Assembly (NCBI RefSeq): GCF_003334405.1
Contig: NZ_QOWM01000003.1
Length of the DNA stretch: 64,000 nucleotides
DNA from: Escherichia coli
Lineage (GTDB): Bacteria > Pseudomonadota > Gammaproteobacteria > Enterobacterales > Enterobacteriaceae
Reading direction: 5' to 3' (one strand)
In this document: in pieces, positions 43,768 to 46,475 of the stretch
Position numbering within the stretch: the stretch's first letter is position 1
How the letters are laid out: the number at the start of each line of letters is the position of its first letter
Notes under the pieces: model-generated
Database searches by the model: none
What the model was told of the DNA's origin: nothing
Seen by the model: only the letters and a program-made list of their open reading frames with translations
Translations under genes and position numbers: made by a program

Positions 43768-44691
43768 TCAGAACGGCATTGATTTTCGAATAGCGTTAAT
43801 CATCAACTGGCAACCAGAAGAGAACGTCGCATCTACGCGGGTCAGTATTCCAATCGGTTCGCCTGCACCATGTCCCGGAACAGGCAGGGCCACCAGCGTG
43901 GCATGACGCAGGTCGTCTTTTACAGCGCCAGAAGGGACAAACCACACGTAATCGTATTCAACCGTAAGTTGACGAGATAGCGAAGCAGACAGCGTTTCGA
44001 TACAACCCGAAGGAATTTTACAGCCCTGGCTCTGCACTAATGCATCTGAATGCTGGCGTGGCGCAGTGCCTTCTGGTGATACAACGACCGGCCATTCCAG
44101 CACCCGGCTTAGCGTTACGTTCTCCTGAAGTAGCGGGTGATTAGGGCGGACAACCAGCTTCAACGATTCAAGAAACAGCAGTTCGTAATTAAGCCCGGTC
44201 ATCAGTTCAGGATCTGACATCCGACCAATGCCGATATCGATTTCCCCGGTTTTTAAACCCGCCAGAATCATAGGGTTACTCATTGTCGCAACTTGCAAGG
44301 TCGTCTCTTTTTGTTGCTGATGAAACTGACCTATAACCGAAGGTAATATCCCCAGTGCCGCAGTAGGTAGTGCACCAACCCTGACGACATCATTATTAAG
44401 ACCTTCTTTACGATGAAGCGACCGTCCGGCAGTGTTGATGGCGTCAAGAACTCTGACTGCATGCGTTAAAAATTGTTCGCCGGGTAAGGTAAGTTGCGCC
44501 CCCTGACGACCACGCTCAAACAAGCGAGCGCCAGTCAGCTGCTCCAGTTCATTCAATGTCTTAGAGAGCGCAGGTTGACTCAAATTAAGGGTTTCAGCCG
44601 CGCGCCCCAAAGTTCCTTGTTGTGCGACAGCTACGAATGTATGAAGGTGGCGCAAACGGATGCGCTGACTAAACAGACTATTTTTTTCCAT
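43768..44691 (-). CDS. ydcI: LysR-family transcriptional regulator
   Basis: 307-aa form from ATG 44691 (MEKNSLFSQRIRLRHLHTFVAVAQ...); N-terminal HTH; the ORF-track 354-aa version is an upstream extension. Confidence 0.85.
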   Translation of the reverse strand: MEKNSLFSQRIRLRHLHTFVAVAQQGTLGRAAETLNLSQPALSKTLNELEQLTGARLFERGRQGAQLTLPGEQFLTHAVRVLDAINTAGRSLHRKEGLNNDVVRVGALPTAALGILPSVIGQFHQQQKETTLQVATMSNPMILAGLKTGEIDIGIGRMSDPELMTGLNYELLFLESLKLVVRPNHPLLQENVTLSRVLEWPVVVSPEGTAPRQHSDALVQSQGCKIPSGCIETLSASLSRQLTVEYDYVWFVPSGAVKDDLRHATLVALPVPGHGAGEPIGILTRVDATFSSGCQLMINAIRKSMPF

Positions 44692-44907
44692 AAGCGATGT
44701 TAAAAACGAAGCGGTGTCGCTGACAAGTGAAGTTGTTTGATTATGATAACTTGATTGTAAAATATTATTAACAATTAAAGCAATTATGTTACAGCAAAAT
44801 GGATAATATTGATGTTTTCGCGGCGAGATCACAGTTTGTAAATTCTTCCCGCAAGAGTGAATGCGGTTACCTACACTCCAGATTACTGACCACTGGAGGC
44901 AGACACT

Positions 44908-46251
44908 ATGGCGAACAGCATCACGGCGGATGAGATTCGGGAACAGTTTTCGCAGGCAATGTCAGCCATGTACCAGCAAGAAGTTCCGCAATATGGCACG
45001 CTGCTGGAACTGGTAGCTGATGTGAATCTGGCTGTGCTGGAAAACAATCCTCAACTGCACGAAAAAATGGTAAATGCAGACGAGCTGGCGCGACTGAATG
45101 TTGAACGTCATGGGGCGATTCGCGTTGGGACTGCACAAGAGCTTGCTACTCTTCGGCGGATGTTTGCCATTATGGGGATGTACCCGGTGAGCTATTACGA
45201 TCTCTCGCAGGCAGGGGTGCCGGTACATTCGACAGCATTTCGGCCCATTGATGATGCTTCTCTGGCGCGTAATCCCTTCCGCGTTTTTACCTCCTTACTC
45301 CGCCTTGAGCTTATCGAGAACGAAATTTTGCGCCAGAAAGCGGCGGAGATTCTGCGTCAGCGCGATATCTTCACCCCACGTTGTCGACAACTGTTAGAGG
45401 AATATGAGCAGCAGGGCGGTTTTAACGAAACACAGGCACAGGAGTTTGTGCAGGAAGCCCTGGAAACGTTTCGCTGGCACCAGTCAGCAACGGTAGATGA
45501 AGAAACCTATCGCGCATTGCACAACGAACATCGGTTGATTGCTGATGTGGTCTGTTTTCCTGGATGCCATATCAACCACCTGACGCCACGTACGCTGGAT
45601 ATTGACCGGGTGCAGTCGATGATGCCTGAATGCGGAATTGAACCCAAAATTCTCATCGAGGGGCCGCCGCGCCGCGAGGTACCGATTTTACTACGCCAGA
45701 CCAGCTTTAAAGCACTGGAAGAGACGGTGTTGTTTGCGGGGCAGAAACAGGGCACGCATACCGCGCGCTTTGGTGAAATTGAGCAGCGTGGCGTGGCATT
45801 AACGCCGAAAGGGCGACAACTGTATGATGATCTTCTGCGTAACGCTGGAACCGGGCAGGATAATCTCACTCACCAAATGCATTTACAGGAAACCTTCCGC
45901 ACTTTTCCTGACAGTGAGTTTTTAATGCGTCAGCAAGGGTTGGCATGGTTCCGGTACCGTCTGACGCCTTCGGGTGAGGCGCATCGTCAGGCGATTCATC
46001 CTGGAGACGATCCACAGCCCTTAATTGAACGTGGTTGGGTAGTGGCGCAACCCATCACCTATGAAGATTTCTTGCCCGTTAGCGCGGCGGGGATCTTCCA
46101 GTCAAATCTGGGTAATGAAACGCAGACACGCAGTCACGGTAATGCCAGTCGCGAAGCATTTGAGCAGGCGTTGGGTTGTCCGGTTTTGGATGAGTTCCAG
46201 CTTTACCAGGAAGCGGAAGAACGCAGTAAACGTCGCTGTGGTTTGCTTTAA
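44908..46251 (+). CDS. ydcJ: DUF1338 family metalloprotein (2-oxoadipate dioxygenase/decarboxylase-like)
   Basis: 447 aa; divergent from ydcI. Confidence 0.8.
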   Translation: MANSITADEIREQFSQAMSAMYQQEVPQYGTLLELVADVNLAVLENNPQLHEKMVNADELARLNVERHGAIRVGTAQELATLRRMFAIMGMYPVSYYDLSQAGVPVHSTAFRPIDDASLARNPFRVFTSLLRLELIENEILRQKAAEILRQRDIFTPRCRQLLEEYEQQGGFNETQAQEFVQEALETFRWHQSATVDEETYRALHNEHRLIADVVCFPGCHINHLTPRTLDIDRVQSMMPECGIEPKILIEGPPRREVPILLRQTSFKALEETVLFAGQKQGTHTARFGEIEQRGVALTPKGRQLYDDLLRNAGTGQDNLTHQMHLQETFRTFPDSEFLMRQQGLAWFRYRLTPSGEAHRQAIHPGDDPQPLIERGWVVAQPITYEDFLPVSAAGIFQSNLGNETQTRSHGNASREAFEQALGCPVLDEFQLYQEAEERSKRRCGLL

Positions 46252-46475
46252 AATCTGACCATCCGCCTTTGCAAAAATTTGCCTGATTTTACAAACGAAT
46301 CAGGCTCATCCCATCGACATAAAAAAAATGCCGATTTATGCATATTCTCTCAGTTCAACAATTGGATTATTAATAAATATTGTCTAGAGTGAGCGGTCAT
46401 AAATAAGCACTTTCTTGCCGCTGAAAACGACCAGCGCGGGACCATTCACAACACCAGAAGGACTCACTTTCAGGT

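What the first reader, a model, noticed from the sequence alone, without database searches (positions are those of the whole stretch)
44908..46251. YdcJ: DUF1338 metalloenzyme with no assigned substrate in E. coli
The 447-aa protein appears to belong to the DUF1338 family, some members of which are reported as 2-oxoadipate-converting dioxygenase/decarboxylases. It sits divergently from the LysR regulator ydcI, suggesting a small regulated catabolic unit.
Basis: partly seen in the sequence, partly recalled or inferred. Interest (0 to 1): 0.3.

Follow-up and report, generated by a model that had tools for sequence, protein, structure and literature searches.

The report
E. coli ydcJ: the known HglS enzyme
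This gene is the well-conserved E. coli copy of HglS, an iron enzyme already shown in the test tube to turn 2-oxoadipate into 2-hydroxyglutarate, so the finding is ordinary; what remains unknown is where E. coli gets that substrate and whether the neighbouring regulator YdcI controls the gene.

Summary
Window 44908..46251 (+) is an intact 447-aa ORF, E. coli ydcJ, lying 216 bp from and divergent to the LysR-family gene ydcI.

The family assignment is also correct:
- It gives a full-length match to Pfam PF07063 (formerly DUF1338, now named HGLS).
- It scores 743 bits against the NCBIfam HglS equivalog (cut-off 550).
- It differs by one residue from the solved Shigella YdcJ structure 2RJB.
- The metal triad H68/H224/E290 and the substrate residues R72/V391/S392 are all present and invariant in 80 orthologues.

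The title claim "no assigned substrate in E. coli" is out of date. Thompson et al. 2020 (PMC7286885) assayed E. coli YdcJ and saw 2-oxoadipate converted to 2-hydroxyglutarate. RefSeq now names the gene hglS.

The "ydcI–ydcJ regulated unit" idea is only partly supported. The pair persists in a relative whose HglS is 59% identical. Against it:
- 21 of 80 related loci have pcaHG between the two genes, and 9 have no ydcI match within the 6 kb upstream.
- YdcI is PcaQ-like.
- The palindrome ATAACC-N3-GGTTAT found in relatives is absent from the E. coli spacer.
- The conserved ydcJ promoter region travels with ydcJ, not with ydcI.
- No paper I found lists ydcJ as a YdcI target.

Verdict: already known, low interest.

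The parts
44908..46251 (+). ydcJ (hglS) coding sequence, 447 aa: Fe(II)-dependent 2-oxoadipate dioxygenase/decarboxylase. Catalytic residues are H68, H224 and E290 (metal), R72 (distal carboxylate of the substrate) and V391/S392 (the loop that closes on the substrate).
   Evidence: ORF. (PF07063, E=1.6e-161, model positions 1-386 of 386). (NF049974, 743 bits against a 550 cut-off). (2RJB with one difference, S193 vs L; 6W1G E=1e-157). (residues present and invariant in 80 orthologues).
44895..44899 (+). Shine-Dalgarno sequence GGAGG, 8 nt upstream of the ATG.
   Evidence: Read directly. Conserved in nearly all 80 orthologous loci.
44871..44877 (+). Conserved CTACACT, a candidate -10 element with a C at -13 (sigma-S-like). 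It ends 31 nt before the ATG. This is an inference; no transcription start site was mapped here.
   Evidence: The block (T/C)CTACACTCCAG is at least 90% conserved in 80 loci, whatever gene lies upstream. ydcJ is induced at entry into stationary phase in O157:H7 (PMC2241611). The sigma-70 consensus scan did not call it, because there is no -35 element.
44827..44847 (+). Conserved upstream element GATCACA-N6-AAATTCTT, about -57 to -37 relative to the inferred start site. It is a candidate activator site; the binding factor is unknown.
   Evidence: both halves are nearly invariant in 80 loci, including the 9 loci with no ydcI match within 6 kb upstream and the pcaHG-type loci. A related version is seen in L082.
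44720..44747 (+). Sigma-70-like promoter CTGACA-16-TATGAT. It is specific to Escherichia and lies in the AT-rich, H-NS-associated part of the spacer.
   Evidence: 10 of 12 consensus positions. The same hexamers are listed for ydcJ in Shimada et al. 2014 (PMC3946193). It is not conserved outside Escherichia.
44692..44907 (.). The 216-bp ydcI-ydcJ spacer. It has no match to ATAACC-N3-GGTTAT with up to 3 mismatches.
43768..44691 (-). ydcI, a LysR-family regulator (307 aa) of the PcaQ-like subfamily. It is a neighbour of ydcJ; it has not been shown to regulate ydcJ.
   Evidence: TIGR02424 PcaQ, 286.9 bits, cut-off 303.8. (annotation). (reported targets are gltA, nhaA, dtpA, lldP, gltP, gadBC and iraP).
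46281..46305 (+). Stem-loop GCCTGATT-N9-AATCAGGC, 30 nt after the ydcJ stop codon. It may be a terminator, but no T-run follows it.
   Evidence: Read. Not called by the terminator scan. Weak evidence.

Best explanation
ydcJ encodes the E. coli orthologue of HglS. HglS is a VOC-fold, mononuclear Fe(II) enzyme that binds 2-oxoadipate at the metal through its 2-oxo-acid group and through R72 at the distal carboxylate. It uses O2 to decarboxylate and hydroxylate the substrate in one step, giving D-2-hydroxyglutarate and CO2. This chemistry was shown for P. putida HglS. For E. coli YdcJ, product formation was shown by LC-MS.

The rest is inferred:
- The product is probably oxidised to 2-oxoglutarate by the E. 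coli D-2-hydroxyglutarate dehydrogenase YdiJ.
- In E. coli the gene stands alone. It is the reduced form of a variable Enterobacterales locus, ydcI-[pcaHG]-hglS-[carboxylesterase]-[LysR, aminotransferase, Lys/Arg/Orn-binding protein]-opgD.
- It is probably expressed mainly at entry into stationary phase, from a conserved sigma-S-like promoter that travels with hglS and not with ydcI.
- It probably clears or scavenges 2-oxoadipate (from 2-aminoadipate) and is not part of a full lysine pathway.
- YdcI is probably not a dedicated ydcJ regulator in E. coli.
For: Identity and chemistry:
- PF07063 full-length match.
- HglS equivalog model passed, 743 bits against a 550 cut-off.
- One residue different from the solved structure 2RJB, and E=1e-157 to P. 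putida HglS 6W1G, with H70/R74/H226/E294/V402/S403 aligning to H68/R72/H224/E290/V391/S392.
- These residues are invariant in 80 orthologues and 95-99% conserved (except V391) in 76 distant representatives.
- The in-vitro activity of E. coli YdcJ and the mechanism are in PMC7286885.

Functional gene: dN/dS 0.03-0.08; present in 5418 of 5426 genomes.

Downstream enzyme: YdiJ is a D-2-hydroxyglutarate dehydrogenase in E. coli (PMC9504171).

Pathway context in other organisms:
- HglS followed by an FAD-linked oxidase and P6C dehydrogenase (806 bits against a 730 cut-off) in L087.
- A DAO-family oxidase followed by HglS in L086.
- An aminotransferase and an ArgT-like binding protein near hglS in 36-38 of 80 Enterobacteriaceae loci, but not in Escherichia.

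Expression:
- About 80 bp of promoter region (from the GATCACA element at 44827 to the ATG) is conserved independently of the upstream neighbour, with a CTACACT -10 element.
- ydcJ is induced at the transition to stationary phase.
- ydcJ shows a strong Csr-dependent response.
Against: - No source of 2-oxoadipate or 2-aminoadipate is known in E. coli. The authors of the enzyme paper leave its role open.
- The sigma-S assignment rests on a sequence pattern and one microarray study. No transcription start site or rpoS-mutant data were seen.
- E. coli YdcJ was assayed only qualitatively, and in what I read only on 2-oxoadipate. Its kinetics and specificity are not reported.
- YdcI control cannot be excluded. 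The pair is conserved in a relative whose HglS is only 59% identical. A YdcI-type box lies in the spacer of many relatives. I could not read the ChIP-exo site tables.
Confidence: 0.85

Rival explanations
1. ydcI and ydcJ form a dedicated divergent LysR-target unit: YdcI senses 2-oxoadipate or a related C6 dicarboxylate and switches ydcJ on.
For: - Divergent orientation with a 216-bp spacer.
- The two genes are adjacent in 41 of 80 Enterobacteriaceae loci, and also in a relative with 59% HglS and 73% YdcI identity.
- A LysR-type palindrome, ATAACC-N3-GGTTAT, lies in the spacer of many relatives, including some that have no pcaHG.
- Its form, ATAA-N7-TTAT, fits the published description of the YdcI motif as AT-rich inverted repeats 7 nt apart.
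- A LysR gene also sits next to hglS in a distant operon, though it is of the GcvA type.
Against: - The box is absent from the E. coli spacer even with 3 mismatches allowed.
- Where present, it lies 124-137 nt (247 nt in L082) upstream of the hglS ATG. That is too far upstream for a classic -65 LysR site, and better placed for the divergent pcaH or ydcI promoter.
- The conserved hglS promoter block is kept in 9 loci that have no ydcI within 6 kb.
- YdcI is PcaQ-like and is directly linked to pcaHG in 21 of 80 loci.
- The published YdcI targets and phenotypes concern pH, acetate/gltA, gadBC and long-term starvation. ydcJ is not mentioned in the text of those papers.
Confidence: 0.2
2. In E. coli, YdcJ acts physiologically on a different 2-oxoacid, and the in-vitro activity on 2-oxoadipate is a family trait without physiological meaning.
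For: - E. coli lacks the known upstream enzymes that make 2-oxoadipate from lysine. The authors note that 2-oxoadipate may function 'in other physiological processes'.
- Overexpression gives a glycogen-excess phenotype.
- In most relatives the conserved operon partner is a carboxylesterase, which does not fit lysine catabolism.
Against: - P. putida HglS acted only on 2-oxoadipate in a panel of 2-oxoacids, and its specificity depends on Arg74.
- That Arg and the V/S loop are invariant here.
- The protein passes an equivalog-level model.
Confidence: 0.1
3. ydcJ is an evolutionary leftover in Escherichia. It is still intact but has no role, because its pathway partners were deleted.
For: The Escherichia loci lack every accessory gene found next to hglS in other genera: the esterase, aminotransferase, binding protein and pcaHG.
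Against: - dN/dS is 0.04 within the genus (E. albertii) and 0.03-0.08 overall.
- The gene is present in 99.9% of complete E. coli genomes.
- The promoter and ribosome-binding site are conserved.
- Expression is regulated.
Confidence: 0.05

Closest known systems
Pseudomonas putida HglS (PP_5260; PDB 6W1G/6W1H), 2-oxoadipate dioxygenase/decarboxylase (hydroxyglutarate synthase)
   Same: Same family and length, alignable end to end (E=1e-157). The metal triad, the specificity Arg and the V/S substrate loop are identical. The same reaction is reported for the E. coli protein.
   Different: [quoted passage not shown] In E. coli it stands alone, no upstream pathway is known, and no phenotype is reported.
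Shigella flexneri YdcJ (SF1787), PDB 2RJB
   Same: 447 of 447 residues aligned with a single substitution (S193 here, L in 2RJB). This is effectively the solved structure of this protein.
   Different: It was deposited as 'uncharacterized protein'. The structure carries no functional annotation.
Rice FLO7 / Arabidopsis AT1G07040 (plant DUF1338 proteins)
   Same: Same fold, HHE triad, Arg and reaction.
   Different: Only about 15% sequence identity to HglS. The plant proteins are targeted to organelles and have a role in plant lysine catabolism and in germination and endosperm phenotypes.
PcaQ (TIGR02424), LysR-type activator of protocatechuate genes. This is the closest family for the neighbour YdcI, not for YdcJ.
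   Same: It is the best NCBIfam hit for YdcI over its full length. Orthologues of YdcI sit directly next to pcaHG in 21 of 80 related loci, with an ATAACC-N3-GGTTAT palindrome nearby.
   Different: The score is below the curated cut-off (286.9 and 297 against 303.8). E. coli has no pcaHG at this locus. The published E. coli YdcI targets are unrelated to protocatechuate.

Membership tests
HglS / Pfam PF07063 (ex-DUF1338) | Full-length match to the family HMM | tested here: met
   PF07063, E=1.6e-161, residues 14-400 matched to model positions 1-386 of 386.
HglS / Pfam PF07063 (ex-DUF1338) | Score above the curated cut-off of the NCBIfam equivalog NF049974 (HglS) | tested here: met
   743.4 bits against a cut-off of 550. 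The Mycobacterium-type model NF050083 is not met (382.7 against 600).
HglS / Pfam PF07063 (ex-DUF1338) | His-His-Glu metal-binding triad (P. putida H70/H226/E294) | tested here: met
   H68, H224, E290. Invariant in 80 orthologues and present in 73-75 of 76 distant representatives.
HglS / Pfam PF07063 (ex-DUF1338) | Specificity-conferring Arg (P. putida R74) that binds the distal carboxylate of 2-oxoadipate | tested here: met
   R72. Invariant in 80 orthologues and present in 72 of 76 representatives.
HglS / Pfam PF07063 (ex-DUF1338) | Mobile loop residues V402/S403 that contact the substrate | tested here: met
   V391/S392, invariant in 80 orthologues. In distant representatives the Ser is kept (69 of 76) and the Val is variable.
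HglS / Pfam PF07063 (ex-DUF1338) | VOC-type partially closed beta-barrel fold | tested here: met
   one residue different from the solved chain 2RJB_A. The fold is described in PMC7286885. No new structure prediction was needed.
HglS / Pfam PF07063 (ex-DUF1338) | Fe(II)- and O2-dependent conversion of 2-oxoadipate to D-2-hydroxyglutarate and CO2 | not testable with these tools
   Reported for E. coli YdcJ by LC-MS in PMC7286885 (Supplementary Fig. 5a, as quoted). Kinetics, metal dependence and stereochemistry were measured for the P. putida enzyme only.
Divergent LysR regulator-target unit (ydcI-ydcJ) | Divergent orientation with a short shared spacer | tested here: met
   216 bp.
Divergent LysR regulator-target unit (ydcI-ydcJ) | A LysR-type T-N11-A palindrome in the spacer, placed upstream of the target promoter | tested here: not met
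   no ATAACC-N3-GGTTAT match (up to 3 mismatches) in 44692-44907; the only inverted repeat is AATATTAT/ATAATATT, 34 nt apart. Relatives do have the box. Only this motif was tested. The actual YdcI logo could not be read.
Divergent LysR regulator-target unit (ydcI-ydcJ) | Regulator and target kept together across genomes | tested here: inconclusive
   Adjacent in 41 of 80 loci. Separated by 1.2-5.7 kb in 30. No ydcI match within the 6 kb upstream in 9. Adjacent again in a relative with 59% HglS identity.
Divergent LysR regulator-target unit (ydcI-ydcJ) | Regulator-dependent expression of the target | not testable with these tools
   No paper in the searchable library reports it. The supplements of the ChIP-exo paper, Romiyo & Wilson 2020 and Jennings 2011 are not held.
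PcaQ (TIGR02424), for the neighbour YdcI | Score above the curated equivalog cut-off | tested here: not met
   286.9 against 303.8. The Klebsiella orthologue scores 297.0 against 303.8.

The most novel reading that the evidence does not exclude
E. coli keeps a stand-alone HglS as a stationary-phase 'clean-up' enzyme. 2-Oxoadipate arises from 2-aminoadipate (from oxidised lysine residues or taken up from the gut) or from side reactions. YdcJ converts it to D-2-hydroxyglutarate, and YdiJ returns that to 2-oxoglutarate. The PcaQ-like YdcI would sense a related dicarboxylate, which would tie this shunt to YdcI's reported effects on gltA/TCA flux, pH homeostasis and long-term starvation fitness.
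Probability: 0.12. Interest if true: 0.4.

Novelty: already known. Interest (0 to 1): 0.12.

Why it matters
As found, it matters little. The enzyme family was de-orphaned in 2019-2020, the E. coli protein was assayed, a near-identical crystal structure exists, and current RefSeq annotation already uses the name hglS.

Two questions remain open and testable:
- What produces 2-oxoadipate in E. coli, which lacks the known route from lysine to 2-aminoadipate?
- Does YdcI have any link to its conserved neighbour? Loss of YdcI is repeatedly selected in starvation experiments.

The comparative picture obtained here is a modest addition to what is published. It shows a reduced Escherichia locus, a promoter region that is conserved independently of ydcI, and a PcaQ-type box present in relatives but not in E. 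coli.

Tried and rejected
1. RNA element or SD-sequestering hairpin in the ydcJ leader (CTCCAG 44876-44881 pairing with CTGGAG 44893-44898).
- The fold is no better than shuffled sequence (z=-0.54).
- There is no Rfam match at E<=1.
- The 80-locus alignment shows uncompensated changes in either arm, for example CTCGAG, CTGCAG and CAGGAA.
- With the inferred -10 element, the 5' arm would not even be transcribed. Rejected.

2. The search for homologous proteins with the E. coli protein returned only near-identical E. coli/Shigella clusters, so it was useless for distant context. The 50%-cluster representative search was used instead.

3. Several representative lookups gave contigs too short to show any neighbours (P0125, P0138, P0140).

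4. Reading the conserved GATCACA as a CRP half-site: the expected left half-site is neither present nor conserved (by eye). Not pursued.

5. Remnant of the carboxylesterase, pcaHG or the other accessory genes in the window: tblastn found none near ydcJ.

6. The YdcI ChIP-exo site list and the Salmonella and 2020 ydcI papers could not be read.

7. Structure prediction and fold search were not run, because a solved structure with one residue difference exists.

Full report
**Observation**

The window holds an intact ORF at 44908..46251 on the + strand: ATG start, 447 codons, TAA stop. A GGAGG ribosome-binding site lies 8 nt upstream. The DNA is 99.9-100% identical to ydcJ of E. coli K-12 and other strains. 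It occurs in 5418 of 5426 complete E. coli genomes, nearly always once, and RefSeq annotates it as 'hglS/ydcJ: 2-oxoadipate dioxygenase/decarboxylase HglS'.

The local gene order is trg, ydcI (-), ydcJ (+), opgD, ydcH, rimL, ydcK. ydcI is the 307-aa LysR-family gene at 43768..44691 (-). The 354-aa GTG-start form in the mechanical ORF list is an artefact, because the annotation and all orthologues start at MEK/MQK. The spacer between the two genes is therefore 216 bp. The coordinates, the length and the divergent LysR neighbour are all confirmed.

**What the protein is**

Four independent libraries agree:
- Pfam gives a full-length match to PF07063, the former DUF1338, now named HGLS (E=1.6e-161, model positions 1-386 of 386).
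- NCBIfam gives the equivalog model NF049974 'HglS' at 743 bits against a curated cut-off of 550.
- The PDB holds 2RJB, Shigella YdcJ, which differs at one residue (S193 here, L there).
- The PDB also holds 6W1G/6W1H, P. putida hydroxyglutarate synthase, alignable over residues 5-445 at E=1e-157.

The enzyme paper defines these residues for P. putida HglS: metal ligands His70, His226 and Glu294; Arg74 forming a salt bridge to the distal carboxylate; and Val402/Ser403 on a loop that closes over the substrate (PMC7286885). They align to H68, H224, E290, R72, V391 and S392 of the window protein. All six are invariant in 80 orthologues from other Enterobacteriaceae. The triad, the Arg and the Ser are kept in 69-75 of 76 full-length representatives of clusters at no more than 50% mutual identity.

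The gene is under strong purifying selection. dN/dS is 0.03-0.08 against E. albertii, Salmonella, Citrobacter, Klebsiella, Enterobacter, Trabulsiella and Kluyvera.

**What is already known**

The title statement that the protein has no assigned substrate in E. coli is out of date.
- Thompson et al. 2019 identified PP_5260 (DUF1338) as the Fe(II)-dependent enzyme that converts 2-oxoadipate to D-2-hydroxyglutarate in P. putida D-lysine catabolism.
- Thompson et al. 2020 solved its structure, proposed the dioxygenase/decarboxylase mechanism and showed a 1:1 O2:substrate stoichiometry.
The likely consumer of the product also exists: E. coli YdiJ is a D-2-hydroxyglutarate dehydrogenase (PMC9504171), although that paper does not mention ydcJ or lysine.

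**The locus in relatives**

A scan of one genome per species returned 80 Enterobacteriaceae loci with HglS at 79-97% identity. Compared with these, the Escherichia arrangement is the most reduced.
- A type-B carboxylesterase gene (PF00135) follows hglS after 40-50 bp in 58 of the 80 loci.
- A GcvA-type LysR gene, a methionine-type aminotransferase (NF009079, 753 bits) and an ArgT-like Lys/Arg/Orn-binding protein follow in 36-38 loci, before opgD.
- None of these genes is present in Escherichia.

Upstream of hglS, the arrangement varies:
- ydcI is directly adjacent in 41 loci.
- It is separated by protocatechuate 3,4-dioxygenase genes pcaHG in 17, and by pcaHG plus a pyrophosphatase gene in 4 more.
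- It is separated by a Mn-pyrophosphatase gene alone in 8.
- It gives no tblastn match within the 6 kb upstream in 9.

Two further lookups extend the picture. A more distant relative (HglS 59% identical) keeps the order ydcI (73% identical) <> hglS - esterase ... opgD-like. More distant HglS genes sit in clear lysine or pipecolate contexts. One operon is GcvA-type LysR - HglS - FAD-linked oxidase - L-piperidine-6-carboxylate dehydrogenase (806 bits against 730). Another has a DAO-family oxidase followed by HglS.

**Is ydcI-ydcJ a regulated unit?**

Evidence for:
- The orientation is divergent.
- The pair is old, as described above.
- Many relatives carry a LysR-type palindrome ATAACC-N3-GGTTAT (that is, ATAA-N7-TTAT) in the spacer. 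It is found in 16 of 17 pcaHG-type loci, in degenerate form in 11 of 41 adjacent-type loci, and in the 59%-identity relative.

Evidence against, for E. coli:
- That box is absent from 44692-44907 even with three mismatches allowed. The best match in the whole window lies inside the ydcI coding sequence.
- Where present, the box lies 124-137 nt (247 nt in the distant relative) upstream of the hglS ATG. That is better placed for the divergent pcaH or ydcI promoter than for hglS.
- YdcI is PcaQ-like. TIGR02424 is by far its best model, although just below the cut-off at 286.9 against 303.8.
- The roughly 80 bp from the GATCACA element (44827) to the hglS ATG are conserved in all 80 loci whatever lies upstream, including the loci without ydcI. 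This block comprises GATCACA-N6-AAATTCTT, then (T/C)CTACACT, then the ribosome-binding site.
- The papers on E. coli YdcI report gltA, nhaA, dtpA, lldP, gltP, gadBC and iraP as targets, with pH, acetate and starvation phenotypes. The text of these papers never mentions ydcJ.

I could not read the ChIP-exo site table or two ydcI papers, so the question is unresolved. I put the dedicated-unit model at about 0.2.

**Expression (inference)**

The conserved CTACACT has a C at -13, no -35 element at consensus spacing, and ends 31 nt before the ATG. From general knowledge of E. coli promoters, this resembles a sigma-S-type -10 element. The conserved element about 25 nt upstream of it could be an activator site for an unidentified factor.

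Published data are consistent with this reading:
- ydcJ rises at entry into stationary phase in O157:H7, in the same expression cluster as astCADBE, acnA and ydcS (value 3.64, PMC2241611).
- It responds strongly to removal of CsrB/CsrC (PMC5389547).
- An Escherichia-specific sigma-70-like promoter, CTGACA-16-TATGAT at 44720-44747, is also predicted and was listed by Shimada et al. 2014, with H-NS in the spacer.

No transcription start site was available to decide between the two promoters.

**Rejected ideas**

The 6-bp hairpin that would sequester the Shine-Dalgarno sequence is not supported:
- Its folding z-score is -0.54.
- It has no Rfam match.
- The alignment shows uncompensated changes in its arms.

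**Verdict**

However, it is textbook-level annotation in 2026, so the finding is already known.

The enzyme class is right. 'No assigned substrate' is wrong. 'A small unit regulated by ydcI' is plausible in the wider family but lacks support in E. coli.

The open issues are modest in scope: the source of 2-oxoadipate in E. coli, the factor acting at the conserved hglS promoter, the meaning of the hglS-esterase pairing in other genera, and any YdcI link. I score interest at 0.12.

Noticed in passing
window 44333-44347 (inside the ydcI CDS): ATAACCGAAGGTAAT is the single best match in the 64-kb window (1 mismatch) to the PcaQ/YdcI-type palindrome ATAACC-N3-GGTTAT. It lies within ydcI itself, not in the spacer. 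It could be chance or an autoregulatory site.
   Followed up: no
L024:7386-8894, L026:7387-8895, L082:7377-8897 and 55 other loci: A type-B carboxylesterase gene (PF00135, about 502 aa) follows hglS after 40-50 bp in 58 of 80 Enterobacteriaceae, and also in a relative with 59% HglS identity. It is missing in Escherichia. No known pathway links an esterase to 2-oxoadipate.
   Followed up: partly
L026:4404-5761 and 20 other loci: Protocatechuate 3,4-dioxygenase genes pcaHG lie between ydcI and hglS, with a perfect ATAACC-N3-GGTTAT box in the pcaH-hglS spacer. Together with the PcaQ-like score of YdcI, this suggests that YdcI is the local pcaHG regulator in those genera.
   Followed up: partly
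L024:8881-11797 and about 36 other loci: A GcvA-type LysR gene, a methionine-type aminotransferase (NF009079) and an ArgT-like Lys/Arg/Orn-binding protein lie between the esterase gene and opgD in many Enterobacter, Kosakonia, Leclercia and Klebsiella relatives. The aminotransferase is a possible source of 2-oxoadipate from 2-aminoadipate in those genera. All three are absent in E. coli.
   Followed up: partly
window 44827-44847: GATCACA-N6-AAATTCTT is almost invariant upstream of hglS in 80 species, whatever the upstream neighbour. I could not assign a transcription factor to it.
   Followed up: partly
E. coli genomes collection, hit H2 NZ_CP061530.1 2010993-2013010: In strain WEM25 the ydcJ match is split into two pieces spanning about 317 extra bases, and two hglS-family features are annotated there. 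Also, 5 of the 5423 places matching ydcJ are on plasmids.
   Followed up: no
window 43768-44832 (- strand): The longest ORF for ydcI starts at GTG 44832 (354 aa) and would shrink the spacer to 75 bp. Annotation and all orthologues support ATG 44691 (307 aa).
   Followed up: yes
window 44741-44775 and L082:5625-5660: E. coli and the relative with 59% HglS identity share a ydcI-proximal element, TGATAAC-yTGAT-wGyAAAATA, about 40-75 nt upstream of the ydcI ATG. It overlaps the predicted ydcI promoter TTAATA-17-TATCAT.
   Followed up: no
L087:3096-8487: A metagenomic operon reads GcvA-type LysR - HglS (50% identical) - FAD-linked oxidase (GlcD-like, probably a D-2-hydroxyglutarate dehydrogenase) - L-piperidine-6-carboxylate dehydrogenase. 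It is a compact pipecolate/2-aminoadipate-to-2-oxoglutarate module.
   Followed up: partly
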